A DNA stretch of 64,000 bases from Lama glama (lineage: Eukaryota): NCBI GenBank assembly GCA_028534125.1, contig CM052833.1, forward strand, positions 3,534,001 to 3,598,000, read 5' to 3'. The notes below the pieces were generated by a model. It worked only from the letters and a program-made list of their open reading frames with translations, had not been told where the DNA came from and searched no databases. This document shows, piece after piece, positions 4,600-35,344 of the stretch (position 1 is the first letter of the stretch; each line of letters starts with the position of its first letter). The position numbers and the translations under genes are program-made.

Positions 4600-6900
4600 T
4601 TGGCAAACACAAGTCACAGTTTTCTAAGATTGTCCTATTCAAATTATCCAACCACAGTTTTTGGAGGGGAATTTGGCAACATCTCAACTGTAGAGACACT
4701 TTATCTTTTGGCTTATCATTTACTTCTAGGGATTTACCCAGACAAAACACCTCTCACAACATGAAATATACAAGCATGATGCTATTCATCATGGTATTGT
4801 CTGTAATTGCAACACATCAAAAACAACTTACATGCCAACATAGGACAGAGCTGTGAGATAAACTGCGGTCCCTCCACACAATGAAATACATCACAGCTGC
4901 AAAGAACTGAGGAAGATCTCTGTGAACTGAGATGAAGTGATTTGCAGGACATTCTGTTAAGTAAAAAGAGCAAAGCATGAAAGAATACCCAAAGCATGCT
5001 GCCCTTCGTGTAAGGAAGAGATATGAAAACATTCATGTATCTGCTCATTTGTGCAACAAGAAATACAGAACGAGAATTGAGAAACTAAGGAGGTCGGTAA
5101 TCTACGCAGTATAGCTGGGCACATGGTGGAAAGAAGGAGGAAATGGGAACTTCAGAGTAGGGCAAGGAGGAAGCAGCACTTCTCTGACTATGCCCTTCTG
5201 TATTGTTTCGATTTTTTAAACCTTGCTTATGTTTCTGACATATTCAAAAAAAAAAAAACAATTAAAGTCAACCAGGATGTGAAGGGAACCCAAAATGGAA
5301 TAAGAAGAGTAACAAATGAATCTAATGATACTACAAATGAATAATACAACCTCATTGAAGGGGGTGAGGAAAGAATAGGAGTAACAAGTAATTTTGGAAA
5401 ACAGTTGCTTTCTTGACCAGATACTGTAAGGCTAAAATCTATACTCAAGTTTTTTCCACAGGCACAAGGATTAACAATTTGGAAACTATTGCACTTTATT
5501 GCATACCTAAGGCTGAGTACATAAGTAAACACATTGTGGCTAACAGCAGCCAGGTGTCTCTCTGATGGAGAAAAGTGTTACAAATAATAAAAGGGAGGAG
5601 GACTAGAATGAGCCCTGTGCTGGTAGTTTAGAATCAGTCATATTGGTACAAATTCAAAGTTTTTGATAGACAGAAACGTAGACACATAGACAGATATATA
5701 ATTCGACAGAGATAGGGAAGTATATGTGTACGTGTGTGTGCATTTATGTATTTCCCAGCTCTGTGCTCTGAGAAGGTATAAAACCAATGACACCTCAATA
5801 CGAATGAGCACATCTAGCCTCTAAGATCTTGGTTTCTAAACACCATTCTCCACTAAAGGAAACAGAGCTCTTTGGAGAAACTGCTTCCAGGACTGGACAG
5901 GGCAAGTACAGAATAAGCATAAAATATCTTGAAGTGCCATAAATGAAAAAGTCCAAAAAAATATGATGTGGGAATATCTAAAGGACACAGGAGTCATCTC
6001 AAAAGATCTCCGAATGGTCAAATCTGGCAAGTCTGGAACAATCTGAGCAACAAAATAAACCAATGGACTGAAACAAATATCCCTGAGTCCATACTGATAT
6101 TAACAAATACATGAATAAATAGATAAAGGAAGCTGTTTCTTACAGCAGAATTCCAATGCACAAATGTACATGGGATGATAGAAATAAAAAGGTACCATTT
6201 AGCACACATCATAGTAATGACTGTCACGGGTAAGAATTACCAAGGGATTTCAAAGTATGAGGAGAAGCAGGGTATTTATACAATCGCAAAGCATTTCCTG
6301 ACAAGATTAATTTAAAAGGGGGAAACTAAAACGTTTTAGTGGCGAGAGCTTACAGATAGCACTTTACACAAGTGACCCAAGTTACCAGCACCAGCAGTGA
6401 AACCTACGGGTATCACGTACCTCCTCGTATGACGAACTGAGGAGGACACAACCTTTCTGTGGCATTTCTGTGTCTGCAAAAATGCGTCATTTAAGTTTGA
6501 GGGAGCATCACACAAACCCATTTTGAGAGACTGCCTACAAAATAACTGGCCAGTGCTCTTCAAAACTGTCAAGGTCATAAAAGAAAGAGACTGAGGGACG
6601 GTCACAAACCAGAAGAGACGAGGAAGACGTGACGACGTCTAAAACGAAATGTGCGACCTGGGACTGCATGCTGAATCGGACCCTGGAACTGAAAAAAAGA
6701 CAACAGTGGGACAACTGACAAAATCTGCATGGCACAGTGAACCCATCGCAGCAACATTACTCTCCTGGTTTGGACGCCTGTGCTACAGTTTACCAGATGA
6801 CAACACCTGGCAAAGGCTGGCAAAGCACTTGAAGTCTATGTCCTATTTTTGTCATGGGTAGGGGGAGTCTGCAGTTATTTCAAATGAGAAGCTAAAATGT
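4600..6900 (+). mobile_element. Old L1 (L1MC-like) ORF2 end plus long 3' UTR
   Basis: Decayed ORF2 C-terminal motifs (ttacttctagggatttaccc, cacacaatgaaatacatcacagc) followed by L1MC-type 3'UTR sequence (actgcctacaaaataactggccagtgctcttcaaaactgtcaaggtcataaaa). Confidence 0.7.
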
Positions 6901-8039
6901 AAAAATAAGTGCAAAAAGCAAAAATTTTCCACCAAATTCTCATTTCTTGGGAAGTTGCCTTTTTCCTATGCGACCACGTAAGGTGAGACAGAGAAACAGA
7001 CTGAATGAAAAGTAAGAAATCCAAATGCCAACATAAGAGAGTCATGTGATTAAAAAATATCTAGTAGAAAAAAATCCACTTATAAAGAGATGAGGGGTAA
7101 AATCCACTAGTTTTGGGGGTATATGAGGAAATACATTTGTGTGTATGAAAAACGTGTTATCGTGGATATACCTTCAAAGAAAAGTTAAAAAACTGTTGGC
7201 CTCCACAAACTATTTTCTGCTCAAAAAAATGTCACAAACTCTGAGGAATGTTTGAACCACGATCTTACAGACATATTACATGATAAAGAACAAACATGAA
7301 TGGGGCCACGGGGGAATGGGAGGGAGAGGGGGGCGCTCCAAGAACACATGCACGTCCAGCGTCTGGAAGTTGCTGAGTATTCCAGTTGCTGGCAATGACA
7401 ATTCTGAACTGTGAAAAATAATGACACTCTCACACCATGACTCACAGAGGAAACACTCTGTAATCGGTAATTTATTATTCTGTTCCTCTGTTTTACTCAC
7501 TGACTTCCATGAGCCGAAGTAAAAAAGCCTCACTTAGCGTGACTTGACTTGGCCTTTCCGCTGTGGGGGGAGGGCGATTTCCCATCACGTTAACAAGTCA
7601 ATGCTAGTTGACCAAGGTCCCTTCTAACACTACCAAACAAATTCACTGGGTCCACAACTCTTTGAGTGGGTACATTTTGTTCCACAGGCAGGAGCTGCAC
7701 CTAAAATGTGATGGAGACACAGCGCTGGACTGTGCTAGGATTCAGGCACATAAAGGCAATCGCACAGCCCAGCTGTGCAATTTGAGTGACACTTGCCCTG
7801 TAACGTGTGGTTCCCCAGTGTACCATCTCTACAGTGACCTCAGATGTCAAATCAAGGTGCCACCAAACATAAAGCATAGATCCTGCCAGCCAGGGCTCTG
7901 CCCACTGCAATGGCTATCAGACATCCAGTCTGAAGCAAGGCTGTCATACATGTGTGGACCCCAATTCAGGCCTCCCTGTCTCCAGGTGGACTTCCTTTAG
8001 ACCCCAGCCTCAGTCCAGTCCTCCTCTTCTATGTCCCCA

Positions 8040-8220
8040 GAGAACCCTGAGCTTCCACATTTGCTGGCACTTCACACAATGAAATAGAATTGGCCGTTTT
8101 CCTTCCCTCTCTCCCAGCTGGATTTGAGCGACCTGAAGGCAGGGTCCACGCACACCTTTCTGTATGTCCCCAGCGTCCAACGCGATACTTGGCCCGATGC
8201 AGGTTGGCGGGCAGGTGGAG
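8040..8220 (+). mobile_element. L2 3' end fragment
   Basis: tgagcgacctgaaggcagggtcc...tgtatgtccccagcgtccaacgcgatacttggc resembles the L2 terminal consensus. Confidence 0.55.
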
Positions 8221-8259
8221 CCCGTGGGAGCCACGCCTGACACACTGCAGTCCAGCTAC

Positions 8260-8400
8260 AGGGCTCATCCACGTTACTGAGCTCCTGCGTGCCAGCAGCG
8301 TTCTAGGTGGCGAGAACGCTGCAGGGACAAGGACGGTAGAAAGACTAGCCTTTGGAGTTGACAATCTAATGAGGGAGACCAACTTTAAACACACATCCAT
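8260..8400 (-). mobile_element. L2 3' end fragment (tail-to-tail with previous)
   Basis: ttactgagctcctgcgtgccagcagcgttctaggtgg...ggagttgacaatctaatgagggagac resembles the reverse complement of the L2 end. Confidence 0.5.
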
Positions 8401-9254
8401 GCAGGCTGGGAAAAACATGGTTAAAAAACAAACCCAAAAGTATATAGCAGGTTTATAAGATCATGTAACTGGATGATCTGACCATGTGAGCTATGAATTT
8501 TAAAAGCTTCCCCAAGGCAGTAACAGAGGTTGGGGAGGTTGGATGGGGAGGGGAATAAACTCAGCAGACAGGCATAAGCTCACTGTGTAAAACAGAGGGA
8601 AAAAAACTGGAGAGGAGCCAAGCGGCAGCCTCAGGGGAACGGCCACACATGGCCTTAGCCAGGCAACCGGAGGGAATGCAACTACTGAGCCATTTAAAAA
8701 TGACAAGTATGTGGACTATGTTGATATGTGGGAAGATATTAATAGAGTTTATTATGGATTGGATTTTTTTTTCTACCATAGAGGTGTTTAGGTTCATTAA
8801 CAAAAATTTTGGAACTCAGCCCCAGTCACCCCTGTCTCAAGATCATCTTAATACTCCTGGAGGCTGGCGGCACTGGTGACCTCGGGGTCTTGGTGGCAAA
8901 GTAGGAGCATCAGGAGTGCTTGGGAGGTCCTCCAACGGAGCCGTCATTTTCCAGATGCAGACTCAGAGTCGGCTGGTCAGAGCGCCCACCTGGGACGGTG
9001 CCTCACGCCCTTTCCGTCCCACGTGTGGCCCTTTCCAGGGGTTCCTCAAATAAGGAAGGAGGCTGGAGATCTGGCGGGTAACCACATCCTCCGTCAGGAA
9101 GAAAAGGCTCTCCCCCAGGCGGATGTGGAAAGCCTTCCTGAAATACTTTGGAGCCTGCTCCCACTTTGGAAGAGGACAGCTGGCCAGTCCTCAGTGCAGG
9201 TGGCCGGCTCAACCTGAACGGCCCCACTATTTTTTAAGGTTAGGGGATCAATCC

Positions 9255-9420
9255 TTAGCTCTGCAAAGCGTGAATTCTGGACCAGGCAGCTCCAGCATCA
9301 GCCAGGAGTTTGTGAGAAACACAGGAGCTTGGTCCCACCCAGACCTACTGAAGCATCACCTGCATTTTAACAAGGGCCCCAGGCAAGTCCCATGCATGTT
9401 GAGATCTGAGAAGTGCTGAC
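9255..9420. mobile_element. MER5A-like hAT-Charlie MITE
   Basis: cagcatcagccaggagtttgtgagaaac...cccacccagacctactgaagcatcacctgcattttaacaag...tgagaagtgctg. Confidence 0.7.
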
Positions 9421-9989
9421 TGACTCCTAGAGCACAGGAGGATTCATTTACTCACTCCTCACTCACTCACTCACTCACTTCTGTGCTAAATCCTGGGCAG
9501 ATCCAAAGACCTGACCAGGCACCTAGAGGTCCAGGTGGGCAGGTGATGCAGCTGCCCTTCTGCAGCCCCAGGGAGAGGAAATCCACAGCTTAAGATCTTT
9601 TGAGAAGGAAGCTGGAGAGTCCAAGGTTGGGGATGGATCAATGAAAGTCTTTAGAAAACCTGTGTATTAACTGCAATGAAAGAGCACCCTTAATAAAAAC
9701 CATCGACCGTTAACGCAACTTTTGTCAGTCAGTAAGGTGCTGCGCTGTTCTTTCCACTTTGCGTGCCCTGCTGGCTAGAAACTTCCACATTCTCTCTTGC
9801 CCGAAACTTCTGTGAGATGCTGGTAGATTAACTTCGTTTTATTGCAGATAATATGGGTCCTGAACAGCAAGCATCGGCATCTCACTGTGTTCAGCACGAC
9901 CTGGCGTTCAGGGTAGACAGAGTTGTCCGAGCTGAGCCCAGACACGCTCGGGCCAGGCTGCAAAGGGTCTGCGCCACACCCCAAGGCCA

Positions 9990-10520
9990 CAGGGAGGTCA
10001 GATCAGCACTGGATTTTTAAGTGAAAATGTGGGTCCCCAAGTGGAGGAGAAGCTGGAGGAAGAGAGCCTGGAGAGAGGAATGGGAGGCAGATGAGAGAGG
10101 GCCTGAGCCCAGGCAGGGCGAGGACCGATCACAGAGCTCGAGGCTGGAAGGATTCAGGCAGTGGACGCCAGGCATGGCCTCCAAGCCCTGTGCGCGGGTG
10201 GGGGAAGGGAGCTGACCAGGTCTCAGGCCTCAGGGTTGGGGACCATCATCACATAAGAGATCTACTGAACGGTGAATATTCTGAGTCTGAGGGGCTGCAA
10301 GACGGACGTGACACCCTGCAGACAGACAGGTACAAGCCAGAGGGGAGGGACTGGGGTCTGGGCAGAAAGGCTACTGAGGCCACAGCTGGAGGAGAGTGGA
10401 CAGAGTGAGACCTGAGGAAAGGGCCAGAGCGGGGGCGTCACACCAGGAGCCAGAAAAGGGCTCGGAAAAGCTACCAGAAAGAGAGAGGTGAGAAAGCAGT
10501 TGGACAGATGGAAACAGCAG
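9990..10520 (-). mobile_element. L2 internal fragment
   Basis: Purine-rich decayed sequence with L2-like motifs (ggatttttaagtgaaaatgtggg; gagctgaccaggtctcaggcctcaggg; ggagccagaaaagggc). Confidence 0.45.
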
Positions 10521-10699
10521 AGAGCCCCCACACCTCCTCACCAAACGCAAAGCATGAAAACAAGGCTTTACGCACGGCAAGTGCTCACAGCAGCAGCAAT
10601 TACTAGTCTCGCTCAATTTGTCAATGTCTCAGAAACTAAGATAAACTATACCCGGAAACATAATCCAACTGTGCATTAAGGTTGTATGCTGCTCAACAA

Positions 10700-11718
10700 T
10701 ACTTATTAGCTTTTATAATTTGCAGGTTATCTCTTTAGGCCTATTTTCTGTGTTCTTCCAAAACTCTCAGGATATATCCGAAATGAAGCATGCAGCTCTG
10801 TGCAATTTCAGTAACATCCATCTTCCAGTATAGAATCCTTTCTCCAGTTTTGTTCATATGATTCCTAACCTGTCCACTGAGTATTTAAATTAACTACTCC
10901 ACTTTGGTTTTGATTTTTTTTTTACATCTGCCTTTTCTTTTTTGATAACATCTTTCTATTCTTATGCTTTAAATTTCTTCTTTTATGTCTCCAATAGTTT
11001 GAAACAAACCTATTTAATATTCTCCATCCAGCAGTCTGCTATCTAACTTTATGGCCCTCTAACCCCACTGCTGACTGTGTGTACTAAACCTCAGGTGCAG
11101 TGGATGGTTCCCTCAGGGGGTCTTTAATTTTGGATTGTGAGCCCATTTTCAGGAGTTTGATATGTGGAAATCCTGCGCAGCTGAGTATATTGTGACCCTC
11201 AAGAAAAGCATCACCATCTAGAGACCTCTCTTCTGCTAATAAGATTGAAGATTCTTACACAAGTAATATCATTCAAACCCTGAACCCAAGAGAAGGTACA
11301 CCTGAGATTACAAATCCCACCAGACCCAGCCCTAACCCAGGGGGTGGTAATCTCCCCCAGGGGGCATAATTTCTGTGGTCCATTCTTTCACCAAGGATGT
11401 GGTCCTGAGGAGCCTGGCTTTAAACAGGAATCCCCACCCTCCTCCAGCCTAAGGTCTCATCTTCTATGCCCACGCCCCCGTAGGTGCTGTTAGGTCACCA
11501 AGACTGGCCAACCAGCCCAAGGTTGCTCTAGCATCTGCTCACATAGTTCTCGCTCATGAAAAGGTTTCTGGGCACTGGGGATTCCCTGTGATTTCTTGTC
11601 ATCTCTGCCTTGCTTTTAAAAGGATGCTCAGTGTTTTACAGCCAGCAGTACTACGTGTTCTGCAAGACAAAGGTTTCCCAGATACCCCATTTGCCATGTT
11701 GCCAGGAGCAGAAGCCCC
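10700..11718 (-). mobile_element. Old L1M/HAL1-like 5' region
   Basis: T-rich ORF1-like antisense sequence then taattttggattgtgagcccattttc, ending in ttgccatgttgccaggagcagaag, typical of old L1 5' termini. Confidence 0.45.
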
Positions 11719-12239
11719 AGGATATACAATCAATAAGTTTGAGATATCTTAAGCCAAGCATTTTTTTTCATACACTAGCTACGCATGCAAAATAATTTAA
11801 ATCCCATCTAGCCTAGCCTCTCATCCATAAAAGGTCTGATCCTGTGACCCACCAGCGGCTGGAGTAAGTCAAACGAACACATTTTTTAAAGATGCTGAAA
11901 AATGCCAGCAGATAGAAAGGAGAAACAGTACCAACCCTGCTACTATCAGACATATAACTTATTTACTATGCTTATTATTAGAATTCATGATTATAAATAA
12001 TGTTTTATGACTATGTTTTGCATTTCATTAGATTTCCTTAGGCTTGATTCCTGGGACAACTACTGGGACAAAAGAATAGATTTGTAAAGGTCTTTTCTAA
12101 GAACAACAAAAGTGATACATAAAAACATGTTGCTTAATTTCTTTTCTGAAAGAACTGTGCTTTCAAAGCAAGAGCAATTTGAGAACATCCACTTCCCAGT
12201 GTCCTATGAAGTTTGGGTTGTAACGGTGATTATATTTAA

Positions 12240-12582
12240 GATATCACTTACACGTGGGATCTAAAAAAAAAAAAGATAAATTTATTTGCAAAACAGAAAC
12301 AGACTCTCAGACATCGAGAACAAACTTGTGGTTACCAGGGTTGGGGGGAAGGGGGTGGGAGGGGGTAAACTGGGAGTTCAAGATTTGCAGATACCAACTG
12401 ATATATATAGAATAGATAAACGTGTTCATGCTGTATTGCACAGGCAACTATATTTGATATCTCGTAGTAACTGAATATATGTACGTTCATGTATGACGGA
12501 AGCATTGTGCTGTACACCAGAAACTGACACAACATTGTAAACTGACTATACTTCAATAAACATATATATATACCAAAAAAAA
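12240..12582 (+). mobile_element. 5'-truncated L1 3' tail
   Basis: gatatcacttacacgtgggatctaaaaaaa...acaaacttgtggttaccagg...gtacaccagaaactgacacaacattgtaaactgactatacttcaataaa + A tail. Confidence 0.9.
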
Positions 12583-14404
12583 GTCACTGTTTAGGCCTAA
12601 GACATTAAGATACTTGAACAATTAAAGGGAATGGAAAACAGAAGATAAGGCTTTAATTCAAATGGAAAAGGCAAAGAATCAGAAGACCAGAAAAAAGCCA
12701 TCCCCCCAAAAAACTACAGCCCAAACATACGATAAACAGCGCCAAGCAAAAGTCAAGACTCAGCCATTACTATATAGAAGGTAAGCATTTGCTTTTCAAA
12801 AGCAGCAAGAAGGTGCCATTTACTGCCCTTTGCGGTTGACCGTGACCCATGAGTCCAAGTACGTCTTGGTCGGTTCCACCTGCCAGCCTTCCTCCCTTCC
12901 ACGCGTGACCCTGACACGCCCAGGGAAGGACCAGCAGAACAGGGCAAACAGCACACACTCCTTCCCAGGCTGTAATCAGAGGACTAACTCCAGAGGCCCA
13001 CGGTTCCTTCCCTCGTCTGTGGAAGATGAAGCTGGCAGAGGTATTAGCCCTTCCCACTTTGCTAGGAAAAAAGACGTTTAGCATAAACCTTGAACTGGAG
13101 ATTTGATTTTCAACCTCCCCATCCACTGAAGTTAAGGAAGCAGAAAGCTCCACCTCAACAGTTTCTCAACAGCAAACATCAAAATTGATTGTCCTATTTG
13201 AAATTTTAAAAAGTAGAGAAAGAAAAGAAAGTCTTTAGACTGGCATCCAGCTGGCACTCTATAGACGCTTTGTATAGTGGATTTTAAATTACAGATTAGA
13301 GTAAAACAGCATGAGCAAAAATAAAGAGTAATCAGGGTCTCTTTCTGCAGAAAATCCCCAGGACGGCCATGGTCTTGACGGTTTTCGGCCGCCCATGCCA
13401 GCTGTAATAACGGCTCAGAAAATCACAGCTCCCCGAGAGCAGAGCTTTCTTGGTACAGCAAAGCTATGATTACTGGAAAGTAGAAATGCTCAAAAAGAAT
13501 CACCAAAGGGAAAAAGGAGAATTTAGGAAAAAAAAAAAAACTTCAGATTTATCAAATGGAATCGACCTTTAGTGACTGAACGCAAAACGCATTTTGGGGA
13601 CACACTGCCCATGCCACACGTTTGCTAAGGACTCCCTCCAGTCACTGCCTATTTTTCAAGTGAGAAATTTGATTTTATCATCACAACTACATTTCACAAG
13701 ACTCATTCTCTGCAAAACAGTCCTTTTGCTGCTCTGGAAACTTCCTTGAGCCTTCCCACTTAAAGGACAGTCCCATCACAGTCTCCTTTTATAGTATTAC
13801 ACAACCTAAATTATAATGATAAACTCATCTCGAAACCATATGTTGGTGACTCTGAAATTAAAACAAAATGTAGATTGTCCAGGACTGCAGAATCTCAGAT
13901 TTGGAAGGGCCCTCAGAGGGCACCAAGTTCTATTCTCCACCCACTGAAGACCTGCCCTAAGCCAGCCATCAAGCTTGCTCAACTCTGAGCCCAATCCGGC
14001 CCCCAGTAACCTCTACCCACAGAGGTAGTGCCGCCCTCTGGAGCCACCCAGAACAGGTCGCTCCATCCCCAGGAGAGTCGTGAAAGTCGGGAGAAGGCTC
14101 TTGACAACCCTTCCAGGTTTCCAGGCCAGGCCTCCCCACGCCCTCTGGCAGCCCAGTATTCTCCTGCATTCTGCACAGGACACCCTCCAAAGAGTCCGGG
14201 GCCCTCCTAAAATACGGCTCACAGAGCACTGCAGCCAGGGCCTTTGAACCCCTTTGACAGAATGTAAAGCTTTACAAGCCATCTCATCCAACAAAGCTTT
14301 ATGTTCTATAAATGTGGTCAACTAAAACACACAGGTCATCTTTTACAGAAATGCAGGTTTTCCAGTCTCTCTTTATTCTTATGTAATAAAATGTTACACA
14401 TTTG

Positions 14405-14652
14405 ATATTAGCAGATACACACTACTGTATATAAAATACATAAGCAACAAAGACCTACGGTAGAGCACACAGAACTGTAATACCTTATAATAACCTATAA
14501 TGGAAAGGAATCTGAAAAAGAAAATATACATGTACAACTGAATCACAATACTGTACGCGTGAAACACTACAAATCAACTGTATTTCAATAAAAAATAAAA
14601 ATTAAAAAAAAGCAAATACAAAATTAAGCAAACACGACAGTATAAAAAAAAA
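14405..14652 (+). mobile_element. 5'-truncated L1 3' tail
   Basis: cagatacacactactgtatataaaatacataagcaacaaagacctac...aaatcaactgtatttcaataaaaaa + A-rich tail. Confidence 0.85.
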
Positions 14653-14729
14653 AGTTTTATCCAAGAAGTAAAACATGTATTTCATTTCTGTTTTACCTTT
14701 TTTAGTTGGTTTCAACCCACTGACATCTC

Positions 14730-14969
14730 AACTTTGTCATGTAATATTAGTTGTTCCTTCTAGCTTTCTGTCACTCGAAATTGTTCTGAGTAAGACCTCC
14801 AGATACAGGACACTGATTTTTTGTAAGTGAAGACATGGCAGCCTCATGATATCCCGTGCGTCTGCCTGTCCCTTGTTGATGACCCAAAACAAAAACAAAA
14901 ACAAAACACACCAACCACATTGTTTTTAAGCAAATGGTGACTTCATCTAACTAACGCCTAACCCACAAG
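14730..14969 (+). repeat. Left arm of 240-bp inverted repeat
   Basis: Base-by-base reverse complement of 15930-16169 with 8 substitutions and no indels. Confidence 0.97.
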
Positions 14970-15929
14970 GATTAAAGAACCCCTACCAAATGTGTTCCTA
15001 AAATAAGATCTGCGAGCCCAAAGTTACCTCCATTCACTTCCAGCTAACCCGGGACATTGGCTCCTAGTAATTCTGCAGTTGTTTAGAAATTGTCACAATA
15101 CCCTTATCAACTTGTCCCAAATCTTTGCTTCTGATTTAATTTAAAAAAAAAAAACCCTACTGATTATCAACTATGTACTGGGTAGAACAGACTTCACTAC
15201 AGATTACTGTCACACTTCGAAGGTTAAAACAGAATAGACATTTTAACCTTGTTTATTTTCCATTTGAAAAAAAAACTGGCTTATTTGCCTAGTCTTCTGA
15301 CAAATGGAGACCACGTACAATGAAATAACCTGTAATTTAGTTCAGCACAGCCGTCAAAGTCCCATAGCTGTGGTCTCTTTGAAATCAAGATCCTTCAGCC
15401 ATCAGAAGAGATCAAAGTTTCTCCTGTGTTTTGAGGTCTTTCAGCTTCACATCCAGAATCTCAAGGTTTCTGGAGACAAAGCCTGAGGTGAAGCGCCTGG
15501 ACGAGGCAACAGGCACCCCTTCCCGTCGGTGAGCAACCTGGGAGCTGGGGGGACTGGTCAGGCTCTGCTCCATCACGGAAACGAGCAGGGGAAGGAGACA
15601 CCCAGGTCTGCGGGCAGTCAGCCCTGCAGATGGCTGCTTCTCTCCTTCCCCTTGCTGCTAAGCAACGAGGGTCCCCCCCCATGCTGGCACTGGCATGCTA
15701 CCTCGGGATGCTCCAGGGAACAGGGACGCCTCTCGCCCAAGAAGCCCCTCGCTTCTTCCTGTGGCCCTGCCCTCATTTCTACTGAAATGCCCCCTCTTGC
15801 CCTGCACGGCCTTTGTCTGTCAAGCCCTGGGTCCTCTTTCACCTTGACGCCTGGTTATTTCTCCAATCCTAAGAATTCCTCAATCTGGGTTAACAGGCAA
15901 AAAGCAGAGAGAGATCCTTGAGAGCCATT

Positions 15930-16169
15930 CTTGTGGGCTAGGCGTTAGTTAGATGAAGTTACCACTTGCTTAAAAACAATGTGGTTGGTGTGTTTTGTTT
16001 TTGTTTTTGTTTTGGGTCATCAACAAGGGACAGGCAGACGCACGGGATATCATGAGGCTACCATGTCTTCACTTACAAAAAATCAGTGTCCTGTATCTGG
16101 AGGTCTTACTCAGAACAATTTCGAGTGACAGAAAGCTAGTAGGAACACCTAATGTTATATGACAAAGTT
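15930..16169 (-). repeat. Right arm of 240-bp inverted repeat
   Basis: Reverse complement of 14730-14969, 232/240 identical; 960-bp spacer between arms. Confidence 0.97.
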
Positions 16170-16804
16170 ATATCTCATTAGTTGTAAGTCTATGTAGCTC
16201 TTCCACCCCTCTTTCCCATTAAAGTGTGCTGATCTTTTCAGACTGGTAGCAATTAATACTCTGCAAGGTGTCACTCCCATCCCCCTCCTGTAAGCAGACA
16301 CAGCAGATGCACAGAACACCCTGAAGAGCCTGCCCGCCCAGCGCTGCTTCTCACCGCAGAGTAAGCCACCTGCATGAACTTCCGGCCCCTGTGTGCCACG
16401 CTGCTCGGTCAGACTCGGCCAGATTTCCTGGTGGCACGGGCTTCTGGGGAAAACCATCTTCAGTTTCTAATTGGACCTCAAAACCCTTCATGAGGCGCCA
16501 CTTCCTAGGCCACAGCCTCATGCACCAGCACGGCAGGTCTCTCTCTTTATTCCAAGCAATGCTGGCACGTGGCCCCGTAATCAGCATGCTCATCTCAATT
16601 GACTCCTCCTGAATCAGATTTTAAATGTCACTCGAGAAGCCCGGCACGCCCGGTCAGCCCACAGCCGCTTCTGGTGACCTGCTCTCCCAATCTTGCTTGA
16701 AGATGTCGACACCCTGTGACTCCATCTCTCTGGCCACAGCAGAGAGGATGAGGGAACCCCTGACCTAAGGGAACCAATCAAGTTTCTCCTCCTAAAAATG
16801 GATT

Positions 16805-16966
16805 CTGAAAGTCAGAAAGTGTGAAAAACTTACATTGAAAGTCAGAAAGTGTGAAAAACTTACACTGAAGGTCAGAAAGTGTGGAAAAACTTATACTGAA
16901 GGTCAGAAAGTGAAAACAATTTATACTGGAAGTCAGAAAGTGAGAAAAATGTTTACTGAAAGTCAG
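16805..16966 (+). repeat. 30-bp minisatellite, ~5.4 copies
   Basis: Unit CTGAAAGTCAGAAAGTGTGAAAAACTTACA starting at 16805, 16835, 16865, 16896, 16926 and partial at 16956. Confidence 0.95.
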
Positions 16967-18699
16967 GCAATGTAGTATGGTCCCCATTCATCCATCCATC
17001 CACCTACCCATTCCACAAACACCAACTGGGCACCAGGAGCATGAATGTGGGGAAGAGATAGCCTCAATCCGTGAAAATCCCTGGACCATTAGGAGAGTCA
17101 GCCGATGGCTGCAAACCAGTGTCCCAAATTCATGAGAGTAAAGTTAGCAAAGTTCTGGGTAACAGAAGATGAGACAACTAAGGGGTTGGGAAGAGTCTTC
17201 CTCAAGGTAACTGAACTAGATTTTGCAAGAGGGAAAGAGGTGGTGCCTTTGGGAAGAAAGAAGAGCCTTAACTGTATTATTAGATGAAAACACAGAGGGT
17301 ATTCAGAGCTGGAGAGAGGAGCGTTTGTGTGAGCTGCCTGGGGAGGTGGCGGGAGACTGACCACAACGGCAGACAGGCCAAGAATCATACTCTGTAGACA
17401 GCGGGAGCCAGGAAGGACTGTGTTTTGGAAGAGAGACAGGATCCGATCTGATTTTGAGAAGAATCCCTCTGCTGGCACCATAATCACCTTTGTCTCATTA
17501 GTTACCATATTTTAAGCCACGTCTCTGTAAACTGTGACAACTTGATAATCTTGTTTTTCTTCTAAATGTAAGGTCTCCATCATTCTAAGCACACATATAT
17601 TTGTATTACGCTTTCTAGGAACTTAATCGCCTCTGTCTCAGATCTCCTCCCATAATTTTTCTAGAAACACACCACAACATGTACCTTATTTGTAATGGGA
17701 GAAGCAAACGCTGTGAAGACAGATCTGAGTCCAAATCCCAACTGTGCTACTTCCTCACTGTGTGTCTTTCCTAAAAATAATTCCTCCCACACTGCTTGGT
17801 GGGTGAGGACTAAACAAAGCCACTGACTGTGTGACTTTGCACATATTCTTCGAGTTTTATGGGAAATGAAGATCATAAGAGAACCAACCGTGGGGACCGG
17901 GAGTGGGTGGGTAGGCACTGTAAAGATTAAACGAGACACAAGGAAAAGCACATATCCACAAAATCCAGCCCCAAAAGCATTAGTTACTAACACAAGGTAT
18001 AAAAAGCCTCCAGTCCAATGCTTAGCGTGACGTAGGACCTGAATAAATGGCAGTTCCTTCCTTTATGCACGTGTCTATGCGTTCTGCTTCTTTGCATATT
18101 TTGCCTCCTTTTGATGTCAAGGGCACCTCCCAAAGCACCTAGTCAGTGGATGGGGTGCCCATCATATAAAGCAGTCAAGCACTTGCCCCGCTACGATTCC
18201 TCATGCTCTCCTCACTTGGGTACCAACTGCACTGTTCTTTCTTCCTTACATCTCTATCACCGGCTCCTGGAGGGCAGAAGACGGTTTTCTTAATTGAAAC
18301 CACCAGGACCTAGTGAAATGTTCTCAGTGCATGGAGGCACTGGCTTTGCCTTCAAAACCCTCCAATCTCAGGCCCACCGCTCACCATGGAGTTGTTTAGT
18401 CTCCCTGGGCCTCAGTTTCTTCATCTGCAGGATGAGACTAACAGCTCCTATCCTGCAGGGCTATTGTGAGGATGAAATGAAATAATGCACAGAAACTGCT
18501 CCCATCACCGCATCACAAAGTTCCACACATAGGGGTACATGTGTGCTTGCACACACATCCCCATCTATAATTCTAGCCAAGAGTTTAACATCCACACTCG
18601 ATCCACACCTTCATTTACTAAGTGCTAACCACATACATATTTTAAATATACCTGACAGGTGATGGAGCAATGATGCAATGACTTAAGAAATTCAGTTAG

Positions 18700-18703
<4 letters not shown>

Positions 18704-18745
<42 letters not shown>
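18704..18745. repeat. (AC)21 microsatellite
   Basis: Uninterrupted AC run. Confidence 0.97.
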
Positions 18746-18747
<2 letters not shown>

Positions 18748-19357
18748 AGGTCCTTCCTAACAACTGACCGAAAATATTTTCTGAATTTAAAAGAATTTCC
18801 TTTTTTGTTTATTAAATTATTTTGGGGTCCCACGCCATCATTAGGATCTCTTCTTTTTCTGATTTTACTAAATGAACATAACTGCCCCGTTGGTAGGTCT
18901 GGCCATGTTGGCTATTCTGATTGTTTTTCCTTTAACTGATTTTGAATACACTATCAGAACGCTTCTTCCAGAATTCAAATTCTAAGAAGCTCTGTGACCT
19001 ATACCCCACATTTCCATTCCTGCCTCCCTTGATAAGCTGTGTCAGCCCAAGAGACAGATGTGTCTGCCAAACTCAACTGCTATCCTCAATCCCTTAACTG
19101 TAATAACCCGTTCTTTAACAGAACCATTCATCTGCAACAGAGTATGGCCAGAATGTGATTTTCAGTCAAAGGTCTGGTGAGTCAGTCATTCAGCAAATAC
19201 TTGTTGAGCCCCTGCTCAGGGCCAGATACTGAGAAGATGCTATAAATGCAAAAGCAAATGATCAGGAGACCCTGCCCACCGTGAACTGACATGGGGCGGG
19301 GGTGGGGGGCCAGAGAGACAGGACAACAGTGAACACAACGAGGTAATCGTCCTCAAG

Positions 19358-19929
19358 TAGTCAGTGCTGCTGTGACACCACGTACGCTCCTGCAAATCAC
19401 CATGCTATGCAAAAATCACTCACCCAAAACCAAAGGGCATGCGGGGGAAAAAAGACAAGAACCTAAAAAAAAAAAAAACTACAGCACAATTTTGTATATG
19501 CTGAACAGTTATGAAATACATCAACACTACAGCTAACAGGGCACTTTACACAGGAAAGGAACCTGAAGTTGGCCGATGGATGTAGGGGCCAGAAAGACCG
19601 CAGCACGTGAGGAATTGTGGGGCGGCAAGGAAGGTTATCAGAAACTGGACAAAAGTCACCACATGTGGACAGGGTGTGCCTCAGACAACGAGACAAGAAC
19701 TGAGGCAGCTGGGAGATGTCTGAGGTGTGTGCACGTGTGTGTTCTGTGTATCCCCGTGTGGCTTGGCTCGGCTGGGTGCAGTTTGCTGCATTTATCTGGT
19801 GCTTTTGCAAAGAAAATTGCCCATCAGCAAATGTGAAACCTAGGTTATGCCCAAAGTGTTTCCGAAGATATCAGTCGTGTTAGAACAAATATATGTTTTT
19901 AAAACAAGGGTTATACAGAAATGAATGTA
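19358..19929 (-). mobile_element. Tigger13a-like TcMar-Tigger DNA transposon fossil
   Basis: gctcggctgggtgcagtttgctgcatttatctggtgcttt...atcagtcgtgttagaacaaatatatgtttttaaaacaagggttatacagaaatgaatg matches the reverse complement of the recalled Tigger13a consensus. Confidence 0.75.
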
Positions 19930-21374
19930 TAATATAAAGAGATAATTGCTGTGAAAAACTATAGCTGGATGAGGGAAAGTGAGAAGGGGGATTTTGTTTA
20001 AATTTTGACTGCATTATTGTACACCACTGTATTCACTCTATACCAACCGTTCATAGAAACCTGGGTGTGTCCTGCATTTATGTGCGAGCCTGCAATCATT
20101 CTGGTGTTTTCTCCACCTTCAGAAGTGTGTGTTGTTGTCACGTGGCCTCTAACACTGTGCCCACGGAGCAAAGCCCTTCTATGGGGTCCCCGGGAACTTT
20201 TCACTATTATTCACTTTATAAAGCAGTATGATTCAATGCATTGAAAAGACAGCACAGTATTTCCAAATCAGCCCCTCTGTGTGATTAGTGACCCCGAACA
20301 CATTCTTAGCACCGACGATCATTCTAATTCTCACTGTGTGTTCAGGAATTCGCATCAGATTCAGCCCAGCAAAATGCTGTTAGGTTGCCTTTGCTTCGCA
20401 CTTTCCTAGTGGTCAAAAATGTGGTGAGATAATTTCTGCTGCCCCCCATCCTTTAAGAATGTCACCCAAATTGAACTCAGTCCGTTTCCAACCTCCTTTC
20501 CCACACCTGCTCATTCTTTATCTCCAATTCAATCTAATCTCTAACAAATTCCAAAACTGGAATCCCAGATTGAAATCACTAACATTGCAAATTTTCTATC
20601 ATAAACATGTATGGCTCTTATTACCTGAAAAAAAATTTCATGAGTTAAATTTGTAAATTGAGAGCAGAGGAAGGATTTGGACCCGAGGCTTCAGGAGGTG
20701 GAGAAGCAGGCAGAGGGGTGAGGCGGACAGGTGTACTGGGAATCCCCAGGAGGCTGAAGCAAGGAGTAGTGGGGAAGCCGAGGCAGTGGGACACCCAGAA
20801 AGGCCCCCTGGGCTGTATTCCCCAACCTAGCAACTCTAGCTTGGTGGTTTCACGCCTCGTGTTGAAATAATGGCAACATTAATTCTTTTCTGTTCAATGT
20901 TAAAAACACTCATAATGCAAGCTGACTGCTCCTCTCTCCGATTACACCCTTCCTGCACATCTAATAAAGACAGCGACCCATCCATGTTTAATTTAATCTA
21001 ATTCACCAAGGGCTTACTCAGGGACACTGTTTTCTAACCTAAACTGCATCCTCTTTGTTTCTCAAAAGGCTTTTTCAGCCAGGGCTGCTGCTGGGGGATT
21101 AGAGCAAGGCACCCCTCTGGGCAGCCTGGAGGGTGACTTGGATCTCACACCTGTTCACACACCATTAGGCAGGGGCCCTGGGCCGGATACAAAGGCTCTG
21201 CTGTCCCCAGTGGGTCAGTCTTACAGGAAGCCAGGACTCGGTGATCCCCTGCTCTGCTGGGAAGCACTGCTGTCACCTTTCTGATGGTGCTTTCAGACAT
21301 GCACATAGAATATGCTTTCTGCATCACAGTTTGATGCCCAAAGAGGTATTCCTTTCATCTGAATTGACCAACCT

Positions 21375-21960
21375 CAAATTGCTGGTGGCAAATGAGAACA
21401 AGTTCTTTAGAAGGCAATCTGGCAAAAAATCTATCAAAATTATAGGTGCACAGACCACTTGACCCAGGAATCCCACCTTCTGGAGTTTATCCTACAGGTA
21501 AACTTGCATGTGTGCAAAATGGCATATAGAGTTATTCACTGCAGTGTTGTTTACTACGGCCAACAATAGGCAACAGACCAACTAGTCATTAATAGGAGAT
21601 GGAGTAAATAAAGGTTCCTATAATGCATGCCATGGAATATTATGCAGCTGTCAAAAAGAAACAGGAAGCTCCCTATTTACCAATATGGTAAGCCCCTCAA
21701 GAAATACTAAATGCAAAAAGTGCATATGATATGATATGGTATCTCTTTTATTTTTAAAAGGGGAATAAATTATGCATTTTTATTCACACATAGAAACACA
21801 GAGAATTAATAACACCGATTACAAGCAGTGGCAAATTGGGGAGCTTTGGGAGTGGGAGTGGAGAACATGGCTAGGGTAAGAAGGCAGGAAAGTTTACTAC
21901 ACATCATTCTATACTTTTTAAAGTTGCAGCCATGTGGATATGTCAATTTGTCAAAAATAT
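21375..21960 (+). mobile_element. Old L1 (L1ME-like) 3' fragment
   Basis: ttgctggtggcaaatgagaac...ttgacccaggaatcccaccttctggagtttatcctac...catggaatattatgcagctgtcaaaaagaa (ORF2 C-terminal relic). Confidence 0.75.
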
Positions 21961-23770
21961 AGGATTTAATTAAAGAACTTTAAAAAATTAAAATAAAAAC
22001 CATACATCTTGTTGAAGTGCCATCCCTACTCCAAAACTGACGGTTGTACGCCCATCTAGGAGGAGAGAGGCTTTGGGTGTACTGGGACCTGTGAGACCCC
22101 TGCCCTCTCTTCCTGTCTCCATCCTGGCCTGCAGGGTCCCCACCAATTCCTATGCTGACTCCTTCACAGTTCTCTTTCTTCACATAGCATGCTCCTTCCC
22201 CATTATAGACTGCTTATCCCAGGTGCTTCCACCCAGAAGCCAGCATGGCCCTGCTGACCCCTAGAACTGGCATAGGACCCCAAACCACCACCAACATTCA
22301 TGGCAGCCCTGGCTGGATATCAAGGTTGCACATCGCTGCTGTCTTCCTGTTGACTACTGATTCTGGAGAACTATCCCAGAAAATCTGCTCGCATCCCCGA
22401 CGGGACTCAGGCCCACATTCATGTTTTCAACAGTACACCGCCCATTGATGGCTCTGAAACATTTTCTAAAGGGAGAAAACCGTTAAAGCCAGTCACCACT
22501 CTACTTTCATTCTCCATTCTAAAATTTAGCCCATGCAAACAATTAACTATGTACAATCTCAGGCTTGCTTTACACCGTAAAGTTTAAGATCTTTGCAGTA
22601 TTCACTCCACAAACTCTCGGTTCAACTGAAGCTAAGTTTTCAGGGCCAGCTAATTTACAGGGATGAGAAAAGTCTGACTTAAGGAAGCTATCCAACTTCC
22701 TCGTCCAGTACTGCTTGACTAAGTATTTGGAAATTCAAAAGCATCTCTCTTTTGTTATCAAAGCATAAAAGTTAGATTTAGTTCAATTGTGTGTATTTCC
22801 TCACACATGAATGTCATGCAGCAAATCAACCTGATCCACCTTTTCATTAAAAAGTGTTAGTTTTTGAAATATGCCCGGGAATACTTTATTAGCTTATTAC
22901 CTGAATCAGTTCCAATCACAAGCAATGAAACCTTAGTGAAAACAAAGATAATTGAAAGGTCAGCATGCCAGTTTCAACACAGCCTGTGATGGTGACACTG
23001 TCTTTCCCGATGGCCCCTGTTGGGCTCCTGCAGAGCCTTGGCTGAGTCACGGCCATATTTAGCCTCACCATTTGTCCTTCGGGTAGGAAAAGGGTGGGGG
23101 TGAAAGAGATGGTGGTAAACATCAAAACCCCAGCAGCACTGGAGTCATCAGCTGAAAGGAAAGGCCAGTAAGACATCTTTCCACTCACCATTTACCCCGA
23201 CCGTGTGACTTCCTATGTACTTTCCTGAACTGCCACCAGTCAGACCCCGACGGGCACTGAGCTGCTGGCACTTACACGTGTTCAGTGATGCTGGAGGGGG
23301 CCAGGCCTCCCAGGTGGCCAGCGGGAGATGGGATTCTAGGTGGGTGCCTGACAGTCCCTAAGTGTTTGGAGCTGGTCCATGACTTGCAGGCCGCAAGGTC
23401 TCAGTCTGTGTGACACCTGACTGGACTGGGCGACCACAGACACTCAAGAATTGTGACTTGTCTGCTTTCTGCACCATCAGTTAATTCAACAGTGGCAGGG
23501 GCCTGGCCCTGCCATGGAGGACCAAGATGGGTGAGGACAGACTGGTATAAGCCTGCAACAAGTATAAGAACATGCAGGGCCTACATCCTCCCTTCCTGGC
23601 CTCTGCATCCAGAGAGAAAATCAGCCTCGCAGAGGGGTGAGCCCGGGAGGAGGGAGAAGAGTTAACCGAGTGTAACTGGACACGAGAGTCTGTTGGAAGC
23701 CGTCTGACGCCTCTGAAAGTCATGTAGGCCAGTGTCTTCTTCAAGAAAAGGCGCAAACTCTTTCTCAGTC

Positions 23771-24345
23771 TTATTTTTAGGCCTTCGCAGTAGCCTGTGC
23801 TCCAGAGCCCACACTCCCCCAGCAGGCTATTCCTGTGATTCAAGCATCTGCTCCTCTTGATATGAAAAGAAAGACAAAACAGAGCGTACCCTCCTCCCCA
23901 GGCTGGGATTCTCCAGGGCCACCCGAGACCGCGCTGGCCCCAGGAAGCCCTCTCATCACTGAGGTCCGTCAGACTCACTTACTGGCTATTTATAGACGCC
24001 CCGTTCACCCATTCCTCAGGCACTTAGAAGAGCATCAGTCCTAAGCTGTGTCAGCACAGATGCTGGTGCGCCTTCAGCGTGTGCTCTTACAGGAAACCTA
24101 AGAATTAAAAGGAACAAGCTGCTACAGGGTAACTATTGAGTATCAGCATTCTTTCCTTCCATGGTTTATGTCAATTCGGGAAAACATGTGTGAAGCATCT
24201 GCCTTTTTATTTAAACCGAAAGCAAGAGCTCAGATTGCCGGGCCGTGGCATGTTTATGCACAAACCCAATGGCTAAATTGGGAGCTGCGTCCACGGGAGG
24301 GGCCCACTTGAGTCAGGCCACCGCAGCTGCCCTGGCCACCAGCTG
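23771..24345. promoter_or_regulatory. Candidate muscle/cardiac enhancer or alternative promoter (MEF2 x2, MCAT, NKE/AP-1, paired E-boxes)
   Basis: TTATTTTTAG 23771-80; CTATTTATAG 23986-95; CATTCCT 24010-16; CACTTGA 24305-11 overlapping TGAGTCA 24309-15; CAGCTG 24324-29 and 24340-45. Motif evidence only. Confidence 0.45.
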
Positions 24346-25145
24346 CCCAGGAGGCCACCCCCTGAACCATAGGGGAGACAGTCAACAACAGAGCACAGCC
24401 AAGCCCTCAGAGACAAGACTGAGAGTTCCTGATGACACCACAGCTACGGGGTAAGATTCCAAAGTCCAGTTGACTAAGGAGAAGACAGTACATGAGAATT
24501 GTTTTTAAATTCCTTTTACTGCATGCAGAGTTATTTCACAACATTTTCCTTGAATTTGATACTGGTAAGGATTTAATATGTTTATGGCCAGACCGATTGT
24601 AAAACTAAGAAAGCACAATTCTAACATTGCAAATTCTCCTCCCAGCCCTCCACTTTTTCTACCCTTCTTTGCCCTCGGATGTTGAGAATTCTCTCCCAGA
24701 CCAACGTTTCAGTTCCATTTGTCCAAGTCAGATTCCCATTTAGCAAGAGGATGTGGATTCTGACAGAAGGGTCTGACTTGGGTCGCATCGTAAGAACCAG
24801 GCAGCAGAAGTCAACACGCCTTTCCTTTTTTCATCATAAACCCAAACTCCCCTGTCACCTCAGGTCCATGGTAATACTCCCAAACCCCAAACGGTCTGGT
24901 TCTCGAGTACAAAGCATCCAAATTAATGTGGAATATCATCAAAGTGCTTTTACAAAAGCAACACGGTGCTTTCTAAGAAACTACAACAGAGGATAAAACA
25001 CTTTACTCAGTCTTCCTACCCCTAAACTCTTTACTTAGACAAACATTCTGAAAGCTACTCCCTGTGAAGTTCCGTTTCAGAATACATGAAAATGTAGAGC
25101 TGTTAGGAAAATCTCAATTCTGAGATAGCCACCCACCACTCTGAG

Positions 25146-25645
25146 NNNNNNNNNNNNNNNNNNNNNNNNNNNNNNNNNNNNNNNNNNNNNNNNNNNNNNN
25201 NNNNNNNNNNNNNNNNNNNNNNNNNNNNNNNNNNNNNNNNNNNNNNNNNNNNNNNNNNNNNNNNNNNNNNNNNNNNNNNNNNNNNNNNNNNNNNNNNNNN
25301 NNNNNNNNNNNNNNNNNNNNNNNNNNNNNNNNNNNNNNNNNNNNNNNNNNNNNNNNNNNNNNNNNNNNNNNNNNNNNNNNNNNNNNNNNNNNNNNNNNNN
25401 NNNNNNNNNNNNNNNNNNNNNNNNNNNNNNNNNNNNNNNNNNNNNNNNNNNNNNNNNNNNNNNNNNNNNNNNNNNNNNNNNNNNNNNNNNNNNNNNNNNN
25501 NNNNNNNNNNNNNNNNNNNNNNNNNNNNNNNNNNNNNNNNNNNNNNNNNNNNNNNNNNNNNNNNNNNNNNNNNNNNNNNNNNNNNNNNNNNNNNNNNNNN
25601 NNNNNNNNNNNNNNNNNNNNNNNNNNNNNNNNNNNNNNNNNNNNN
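25146..25645. other. Assembly gap (~500 N)
   Basis: Run of n. Confidence 0.97.
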
Positions 25646-25792
25646 GGGTGTATGAATGTGTAGGTGATGGCTAAGTCAGTCACCTGTGTCGGGTAAACAA
25701 AGGTGCCCAGGACAGGGGTTAAGGACTTGTCCCACTTCCTAAGTGATGTCCAACCCATCTTCTCATATTTCAGAGTAATGATAGATGGTTAT

Positions 25793-27064: not shown

Positions 27065-27235
27065 CAGGCAACAACTCTGCAAGATAAGTATTATCGTCAT
27101 CTTTTTACAGATGAGGACACTGAGGGACAGAATGTAAGTAGGACGTTCAAGTTCCCAGCCAATGAGTGGCAGAGCCAGGATTCAAATCCAGGCAGCTTGA
27201 CCGTGGGGGTCCACATTCTGAATCCCACCATTGGT
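27065..27235 (-). mobile_element. MIR SINE
   Basis: tttttacagatgaggacactgaggg...gtggcagagccaggattcaaatccaggcag (MIR core, antisense). Confidence 0.8.
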
Positions 27236-27284
27236 AGAATGTGAATTAATATAGGTGTCCGCAAAGCTCCAAGCAGAGTTTAGT

Positions 27285-30295: not shown

Positions 30296-30305
30296 TGATT
30301 GACAG
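30296..30305 (+). promoter_or_regulatory. PBX-MEIS/PREP decamer motif
   Basis: Exact TGATTGACAG, overlapping CAGGTG E-box, with TAAT/ATTA cores in the following 70 bp. Confidence 0.35.
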
Positions 30306-35312: not shown

Positions 35313-35344
35313 ATTTTAAGGAAACATTTTTAAGAATCCCCCAT

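What the first reader, a model, noticed from the sequence alone, without database searches (positions are those of the whole stretch)
14730..16169. 240-bp near-perfect inverted repeat of non-recognisable sequence around a 960-bp spacer: candidate flip-flop segment kept homogeneous by arm-to-arm gene conversion
Seen: arms 14730-14969 and 15930-16169 align with no indels and 8 substitutions (left positions 14741, 14745, 14751, 14759, 14839, 14934, 14939, 14961). Seven of the eight sit in the terminal ~30-36 bp of the arms, while the central 174 bp (14760-14933) has one. The slippage-prone (CAAAA)n tract has identical length in both arms, four CpGs are retained in both, and weaker similarity continues ~20 bp outward. 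The arms match no SINE, LINE or LTR I recognise. Established: inverted repeats can be homogenised by gene conversion and mediate recurrent inversion of the spacer (e.g. the FLNA-EMD repeats on the eutherian X). Inference: a near-identical core with diverged edges fits an older duplication under ongoing conversion better than a single recent copy event, so the spacer may be an orientation polymorphism.
Basis: partly seen in the sequence, partly recalled or inferred. Interest (0 to 1): 0.72.

Follow-up and report, generated by a model that had tools for sequence, protein, structure and literature searches.

The report
Old inverted duplication in FHOD3 intron
A 243-base piece of intron DNA in the heart-muscle formin gene FHOD3 of a camel-family mammal is present twice, back to back and about 950 bases apart; the two copies have likely swapped sequence now and then and likely form an edited RNA stem, but nothing seen shows that the piece between them flips or that the structure has a job.

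Summary
The repeat is real: arms 14730-14972 and 15927-16169, 96.3% alike, with the 8 substitutions where stated. Searches of the genome found two arm copies and one spacer, and 6 of 6 DNA runs laid hold both arms. It lies in an FHOD3 intron on the minus strand. RNA contigs of a relative about 3.6% diverged also have both arms on the spacer, so the duplication is old. In one such run both arms carry the same changed letter at the mirror sites 14957/15942, a sign of gene conversion (about 0.015-0.018 such sites expected by parallel mutation). Mismatches cluster at the edges (p 0.004-0.03). Against this, the total of 8 in 240 equals the no-conversion expectation (8.7), and one run has an unmirrored 14-base deletion. 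Nothing shows a flip. T>C changes in the relative's arms hint at A-to-I editing; if they are edits, the spacer has the same orientation there. This is the common 'inverted duplication' class of structural variant, with modest evidence for conversion. Interest is low to moderate.

The parts
14730..14972 (+). Left arm of the inverted duplication (243 nt)
   Evidence: two copies found in the genome
15927..16169 (-). Right arm, 96.3% identical reverse complement of the left arm; mirror rule right = 30899 - left
14973..15926 (.). Spacer, 954 nt, one copy found; A+T-rich left half, G+C-rich right half; no Pfam hit in the spacer ORFs scanned
14760..14933 (+). Near-identical core (mirror 15966-16139), one mismatch at 14839; one collapsed contig at 1.5-2.3 times flank depth in the DNA runs (174 nt in 5 of 6, 126 nt in X2)
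14957..14957 (+). Concerted site, left copy: C in the window, T in RNA contigs of the relative (X15, X19)
   Evidence: table 3
15942..15942 (+). Concerted site, mirror position in the right arm: G in the window, A in X15
   Evidence: table 3; mirror rule
14723..14729 (+). 7-nt near-direct repeat (6 of 7) of 16170-16176 just outside the arms; junction scar or chance (about 1.5% of random pairs)
16170..16176 (+). Partner of the 7-nt near-direct repeat
1..64000 (-). Host gene FHOD3: the whole window lies between coding exon 2 (contig 3601551-3601655) and exon 4 (3492015-3492080); the repeat is 51 kb past exon 2 and 57 kb before exon 4; exon 3 was not placed, so the intron is 2 or 3

Best explanation
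This is a local inverted duplication of 243 bases in an FHOD3 intron, older than the split from a relative 3.6% diverged, whose arms have likely been partly re-matched by occasional arm-to-arm gene conversion and likely pair in the pre-mRNA to give an A-to-I edited stem, likely without flipping of the spacer and likely without a selected function. Step 1 (inferred): one replication or repair template switch copied a unique intronic stretch backwards about 1 kb away. Step 2 (shown for presence): both arms were inherited by the window's group and by the relative. Step 3 (one site shown, mechanism inferred): short non-crossover conversion tracts between the close arms copy letters across, most often in the centre, so the edges decay first. 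Conversion is sporadic, because new one-arm changes persist. Step 4 (predicted fold, editing hinted): FHOD3 is read on the minus strand through both arms, and the roughly 240-bp stem is a typical ADAR substrate. Crossover, which would invert the spacer, is taken to be rare at this length.
For: Real and found twice only; held by 6 of 6 DNA runs laid, one for each of six organism labels. Old: X15 has a left-arm-plus-spacer contig (14821-15594) and a spacer-plus-right-arm contig (15660-15982); divergence outside the arms is 111 of 3049 letters, 3.6% (X15 and X19 overlap, so not independent). Conversion: 14957 C>T (X15, X19) and its mirror 15942 G>A (X15) at a non-CpG site; neither is an A-to-I type change; 0.015-0.018 such sites are expected by parallel mutation over the 46-56 sites visible on both arms. 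A likely second case: the X15 left arm has one more letter in the T run 14817-14822, and the X15 record on 16055-16149 has 96 letters on 95 places, where the only run of 4 or more is the mirror A run 16077-16082 (the gap's place was not printed). Core 1 of 174 against 6.3 expected (P=0.012, boundary chosen after the fact); a boundary-free simulation without conversion gives P=0.037 at 3.6% (0.08 at 3.0%, 0.012 at 4.4%). Editing hint: 7 of 12 visible arm changes in X15/X19 are T>C, which is A>G on the FHOD3 strand; X15, which covers the arms, lists T>C 26 against A>G 11 (p=0.02), X19 13 against 10; the arms do not collapse into one contig in X15 as they do in all six DNA runs. The stem is in both the MFE and centroid folds. 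Class: 54% of sequenced human 'inversions' were inverted duplications, nearly all under 1 kb inserted within 5 kb (PMC4617611, passages).
Against: Whole-arm divergence of 8 in 240 matches the 8.7 expected with no conversion at all (P(<=8)=0.49). The conversion case rests on one printed site in RNA contigs of depth 6-8. X2 has a 14-base deletion at 14788 and A>T at 14807 in the left core only, and X15 has 15944 G>A with no mirror change among the rows shown. The 3-against-3 split of letters at 14839 among the DNA runs cannot be used, because bubble removal in contigs gives the same picture and the depth ratios (1.5-2.3) straddle both expectations (1.7-1.8 and 2.0). The T>C share in the arms (7 of 12) is not significantly above that outside (9 of 30 rows shown; Fisher p=0.16), and no DNA run of the relative was laid. 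If those T>C changes are genomic, the relative's arms differ strongly from each other, which would count against conversion in that lineage. One search printed 40 of 104 difference rows and 12 of 15 indel rows.
Confidence: 0.6

Rival explanations
1. One duplication shortly before the split from the relative, then independent neutral decay with no conversion; the mirrored change is a parallel mutation and the clean core is luck.
For: 8 of 240 against 8.7 expected; unmirrored changes in X2 and X15; a clean core of this length arises in 4-8% of simulations at 3.0-3.6% divergence.
Against: Mirrored change at a non-CpG site (expected 0.015-0.018), the likely mirrored insertion, and edge clustering p 0.004-0.03.
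Confidence: 0.2
2. One reading: conversion is ongoing and crossovers between the arms invert the 954-base spacer repeatedly, so both orientations segregate.
For: Conversion signs as above. NAHR inversions recur in humans and apes (PMC6748972, passages). Exchange over matching stretches under 50 bp is reported for close repeats (PMC2583991, passages).
Against: No joints in 8 of 8 runs, though contigs cannot show orientation once the core collapses. If the T>C changes are edits on the FHOD3 strand, the arm joined to the spacer's left end is read as in the window, which means the same orientation in X15 and X19. The longest perfect match is 94 nt, against about 300-500 bp for efficient human meiotic NAHR (PMC2583991). 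In the much larger palindrome P6, conversion is frequent yet only three inversions were seen among 378 chromosomes (PMC3723533, abstract).
Confidence: 0.12
3. Alternative origin, compatible with later conversion: the arms are the scar of a single inversion (staggered break or two-switch template jump), so the spacer was inverted once relative to the ancestor and then fixed.
For: Such events give this same arm-spacer-arm layout (own knowledge); weak inverted similarity and a 7-nt near-direct repeat at the outer junctions.
Against: The outward similarity is not significant (24 of 300). Simple inverted duplication is the commoner class in human data (PMC4617611; 21 opposite-strand non-tandem duplications among 166 rearrangements, PMC5829575, passages). 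No outgroup could be read.
Confidence: 0.25
4. An orphan DNA transposon or foldback element with 243-base terminal inverted repeats and a 7-base target-site duplication.
For: The near-direct repeat 14723-14729 / 16170-16176 directly abuts both arms; about 1.5% of random pairs show this.
Against: Neither arm nor spacer has other copies in the genome searches, while a real dispersed repeat gave 3102 candidates; no Pfam hit in the spacer ORFs scanned.
Confidence: 0.04
5. Assembly artefact.
For: The assembly is fragmented (1,072,352 contigs) and holds alleles as separate small contigs.
Against: 6 of 6 DNA runs give distinct flank-arm and arm-spacer contigs for both arms and a core at raised depth.
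Confidence: 0.01

Closest known systems
Inverted duplications ('inv-dup') of the 1000 Genomes SV map (PMC4617611, passages) and opposite-strand non-tandem duplications (PMC5829575, passages)
   Same: A stretch under 1 kb copied in reverse within 5 kb of its partner; unique sequence; no mobile element needed.
   Different: Those are young and polymorphic in humans. This one is present in all runs laid, is shared with a 3.6% diverged relative, and shows a sign of later arm-to-arm exchange. Source and target copy are not identified here.
FLNA-EMD recurrent inversion (HsInv0389) and other human NAHR inversions (PMC3961182, PMC6748972, passages; the original FLNA-EMD paper was not held, and is recalled)
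   Same: Inverted repeats around a unique spacer, with signs of concerted evolution.
   Different: Those repeats are 654 bp to 24.2 kb in the 24-inversion set, and both orientations are documented. Here the arms are 243 nt, the spacer holds no known gene, and only one orientation is known.
Sex-chromosome palindromes such as human Y P6 (PMC3723533, abstract)
   Same: Arm-to-arm conversion with rare inversion.
   Different: Arm identity above 99.9% and kilobase tracts there; 96% and a far smaller, apparently autosomal repeat here (autosomal position of FHOD3 recalled).
Intronic inverted-repeat dsRNA edited by ADAR, such as inverted Alu/SINE pairs (own knowledge; search listing)
   Same: Two close inverted copies in one pre-mRNA, a long predicted stem, and changes of the A>G type on the transcribed strand.
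   Different: The arms are not a repeat family; editing is only hinted, in a relative, without matched DNA.

Membership tests
Local inverted duplication (inv-dup) | Copy under 1 kb in reverse orientation within 5 kb of its partner | tested here: met
   243 nt, 954 nt apart
Local inverted duplication (inv-dup) | Not two insertions of a dispersed repeat family | tested here: met
   2 of 2 candidates in the genome against 3102 for a control pair; very old, highly diverged repeats could be missed
Local inverted duplication (inv-dup) | Ancestral allele with one copy and the spacer in the same orientation | not testable with these tools
   No outgroup mammal sequence reachable (no relatives for G000; metagenome scans empty)
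Inverted repeat under concerted evolution | Lineage-specific letters shared by both arms | tested here: met
   One printed site, 14957/15942; a second only inferred
Inverted repeat under concerted evolution | Arm-to-arm divergence below ortholog divergence | tested here: inconclusive
   Core 1 of 174 is below, whole arm 8 of 240 is not, against 3.6%
Inverted repeat under concerted evolution | Arms group by species in a tree | not testable with these tools
   The relative's full arm sequences are not delivered by read laying
Recurrent NAHR inversion (FLNA-EMD type) | Both spacer orientations exist within or between species | tested here: inconclusive
   No joints in 8 of 8 runs, but contigs cannot show it; editing polarity would mean the same orientation in the relative
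Recurrent NAHR inversion (FLNA-EMD type) | Repeats long enough for efficient crossover (hundreds of perfectly matched bases) | tested here: not met
   Longest perfect run 94 nt, at most 174, against 300-500 bp and 654 bp; exceptions are known for close repeats
DNA transposon / foldback element | Target-site duplication abutting both terminal repeats | tested here: inconclusive
   6 of 7 match, chance about 1.5%
DNA transposon / foldback element | Other family members or a transposase | tested here: not met
ADAR-edited intronic dsRNA | Both arms in one transcript and able to pair | tested here: met
   Both lie inside FHOD3; stem predicted; a transcript through both arms is not shown
ADAR-edited intronic dsRNA | A>G in RNA absent from DNA of the same individual | tested here: inconclusive
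   T>C excess in X15, no matched DNA run

The most novel reading that the evidence does not exclude
Small local inverted duplications, well below the length usually given for efficient ectopic crossover, are kept alive for many millions of years by intramolecular gene conversion, and so form a lasting class of non-repeat ADAR substrates in mammalian introns. This FHOD3 pair would be a clean case that is conversion-maintained and edited, and in the boldest form it also flips its 1-kb spacer within camelid populations.
Probability: 0.2. Interest if true: 0.55.

Novelty: new member of a known kind. Interest (0 to 1): 0.3.

Why it matters
If the mirrored changes hold up in DNA, the locus is a small natural test of how short an inverted repeat can be and still undergo arm-to-arm conversion over evolutionary time, and it can be scored from existing camelid assemblies. 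It would also be an example of an edited double-stranded RNA made from unique sequence. No effect on FHOD3 or on the animal is shown; the repeat is more than 50 kb from the placed coding exons. I found no paper on this locus: 'FHOD3 + inversion + inverted repeat' gave 0 papers; 'FHOD3 + inversion + intron' gave 18, of which 17 were listed and none looked relevant by title and abstract start; a camelid search listed 12 of 31, none on it. Human FHOD3 is marked 'Overlapped: No, Flanked: Yes' in one row of Supplementary Table 4 of PMC11794170. I did not read that table's definitions or orientation, so it is not used as evidence about a human ortholog.

Tried and rejected
Pfam on 264 window ORFs of 70 aa or more: no family above its cutoff. 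Rfam on the window: two tRNA-like hits, none at the repeat. TRF: nothing in the arms. A 22-nt arm pattern with up to 2 mismatches found both arms plus 2 hits that do not extend. Two metagenome scans: 0 matches. Outward extension of the arms: not above chance. The letter at 14839 in collapsed cores (right-arm letter in X1, X3, X10; left-arm letter in X2, X4, X9) looked like concerted polymorphism but was dropped, because contig bubble removal gives the same result. 14751 T>G in X2 matches the right arm but cannot be polarised. Parts without cover in the RNA contigs (left outer edge, stretches of the right core) were not read as absence. RNA contigs over the locus do not prove transcription; no separate silent stretch was laid, and X19 is only guessed to be RNA. 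I laid 6 of 14 DNA holders and 2 of the 6 RNA or RNA-guess runs that hold part of the stretch. FHOD3 exon 3 was not found in the 264 kb held; it matches two 1,541-nt contigs that overlap nothing held. Look-ups of earlier scan findings near the locus, by sequence and in relatives returned nothing. A literature search for concerted evolution of short inverted repeats in mammals returned 0 papers at 4 of 5 terms, and a last search listed 3 papers, none on this question by title and abstract start. Supplements of bioRxiv inversion catalogues were closed, and I did not search human inversion tables by coordinate; a human or other ortholog inversion is therefore not excluded.

Full report
Observation. 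The arms align without gaps at the stated places and differ at the eight stated positions. BLAST and the repeat finder give 14730-14972 and 15927-16169, 243 nt, 96.3%. The CAAAA tract and four CpGs are alike in both arms. In the 264 kb held (window plus 100 kb on each side) no other inverted pair of 80 nt or more exceeds about 90%.

Copy number and reality. A search of the window's own genome gave 2 matches from 2 candidates for the arm and 1 from 1 for the spacer. The 81% inverted pair at 44759-49351 in the same window gave 3102 candidates, so the search does see dispersed repeats. A 22-nt arm pattern with 2 mismatches added two hits that do not extend. Fourteen DNA runs under six organism labels hold 0.88-0.94 of the sampled words. 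I laid six of them, one per label. All six give separate contigs for left flank plus outer edge, inner edges plus spacer, and outer edge plus right flank, and one collapsed core at 1.5-2.3 times the flank depth. The repeat is not an assembly artefact. One of these runs may be the assembly's source.

Context. No ORF of 70 aa or more in the window passes a Pfam cutoff (0 of 264). An exon scan of the flanks, Pfam and PDB, a homolog search and tblastn place FHOD3 coding exons 1 and 2 on one side of the window and exons 4 and 5 on the other, all on the minus strand. Further out lie exons with aminotransferase class V, MOSC_N and MOSC domains (read as MOCOS from my own knowledge). Exon 3 was found only on two small contigs that overlap nothing held, so the intron is number 2 or 3. 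A predicted Camelus bactrianus protein matches two further stretches here at 96-97%, which marks the genome as camel-family.

Age. Runs X15 (RNA on record) and X19 (RNA by guess) come from a relative that differs at 111 of 3049 letters outside the arms (3.6%). X15 has one contig joining the left arm to the spacer and another joining the spacer to the right arm; further contigs run from the right arm's outer part into the right flank. The duplication therefore predates that split. That the relative is the other camelid tribe, and that the split is some 16-20 million years old, is my inference and recall, not a result.

Conversion, for. At 14957 both relative runs read T for C. At the mirror place 15942, X15 reads A for G. 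Both arms of the window have one letter and both arms of the relative have the other. The site is not a CpG and neither change is of the A-to-I type. Parallel mutation would give 0.015-0.018 such sites over the 46-56 places visible on both arms. A second case is likely but not printed: the left T run 14817-14822 is one letter longer in X15, and the X15 record on 16055-16149 carries one extra letter where the only homopolymer is the mirror A run; homopolymers slip easily, so this weighs little. Mismatches cluster at the edges (p=0.011 and 0.004; 0.032 and 0.013 without the allelic site 14961). A 174-nt stretch with at most one mismatch arises without conversion in 3.7% of simulations at 3.6% divergence and in 8% at 3.0%.

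Conversion, against. The total of 8 in 240 is what independent decay since the split predicts (8.7). Run X2 has a 14-base deletion and a substitution in the left core that the right arm lacks. X15 has a CpG change at 15944 with no mirror among the rows shown. The split of core letters at 14839 among DNA runs is uninformative. One search printed only 40 of 104 difference rows, the contigs have depth 6-8, and the call could not be repeated. I put occasional conversion at about 0.75 and strong continuous homogenisation much lower.

RNA. The minus-strand transcript is predicted to pair the arms into one stem of about 240 bp. Of 12 visible arm changes in X15/X19, 7 are T>C on the plus strand, that is A>G on the FHOD3 strand, and one sits in a UAG context. 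X15, which covers the arms, lists 26 T>C and 11 A>G; X19, which covers little of them, lists 13 and 10 (p=0.02 for X15; the excess of 13 to 1 has a rough p=0.004, but at least 4 of these lie outside the arms). Editing would explain why the arms do not collapse in X15. Against: T>C is also common outside the arms (9 of 30 rows shown; Fisher p=0.16), and no DNA of the relative was laid. If these changes are genomic, the relative's arms are well diverged from each other, which would weaken the conversion case. I put editing at about 0.55.

Orientation. Contigs cannot show it once the core collapses, and no joints were listed in 8 of 8 runs. One indirect sign exists. If the T>C changes are edits on the FHOD3 strand, the arm joined to the spacer's left end is read in the same sense as in the window; a reversed spacer would have shown A>G there. 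That means the same orientation in two samples of the relative. Published figures also argue against frequent flipping: 654 bp is the shortest repeat among 24 human NAHR inversions (PMC6748972, passages); efficient human meiotic NAHR needs about 300-500 bp, with exceptions under 50 bp for close repeats (PMC2583991, passages); and palindrome P6 shows frequent conversion but three inversions in 378 chromosomes (PMC3723533, abstract). The longest perfect match here is 94 nt.

Origin. Without an outgroup I cannot name the source copy or tell a simple inverted duplication from an inversion scar. A 7-nt near-direct repeat abuts both arms (chance about 1.5%), but no family or transposase was found, so a transposon is unlikely.

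Comparison and verdict. The layout is that of inverted duplications, which made up 54% of sequenced human inversion calls, nearly all under 1 kb and within 5 kb (PMC4617611, passages), and of opposite-strand non-tandem duplications (21 of 166; PMC5829575, passages). Earlier, unchecked notes of this scan list five similar pairs of 48-112 nt in the same genome, so the class seems common here. What sets this one apart is its greater length and one printed sign of arm-to-arm exchange. It works like a miniature palindrome under weak concerted evolution; it is not shown to be a recurrent inversion. Other papers: PMC3961182, PMC3924818, PMC8605555 and PMC11794170 were seen as passages (plus one supplement row of the last); all others as search listings only. 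Verdict: new member of a known kind, interest 0.3.

Noticed in passing
window 44759-45214 and 48899-49351: Second inverted pair, 81% over 457 nt; two copies of a common dispersed repeat (3102 candidates), so ordinary. The partner is the best non-self hit by a small margin (419 bits against 417).
   Followed up: yes
G000:C271036 and G000:C271070 (L024, L025), 827-901 minus: FHOD3 exon 3 matches two 1,541-nt contigs that differ at 14 places (99.1%), likely two alleles; it was not found in the 264 kb of the main contig held.
   Followed up: partly
window about 14404-14607: Fragment of a very high-copy repeat (summed depth in the hundreds of thousands; looks like an L1 3' end, label recalled) ending about 120 nt left of the left arm.
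   Followed up: no
window 16805-16966: 30-nt tandem repeat, 5.4 copies, about 640 nt right of the right arm; contigs break there in X9, X15 and X19, so it may vary in length.
   Followed up: no
window 14788-14807: Run X2 (organism B) has a 14-base deletion and a substitution in the left arm only, plus the right-arm letter at 14751.
   Followed up: partly
L013:4850-4945 and L007:8645-8716, minus strand: Stretches matching non-canonical first and last exons of a predicted Camelus bactrianus FHOD3 fragment (P0022); probably gene-prediction products.
   Followed up: no
window 1527-1599 and 28766-28837: tRNA-like Rfam hits, 87% alike and followed by A runs; likely tRNA-derived SINEs.
   Followed up: no
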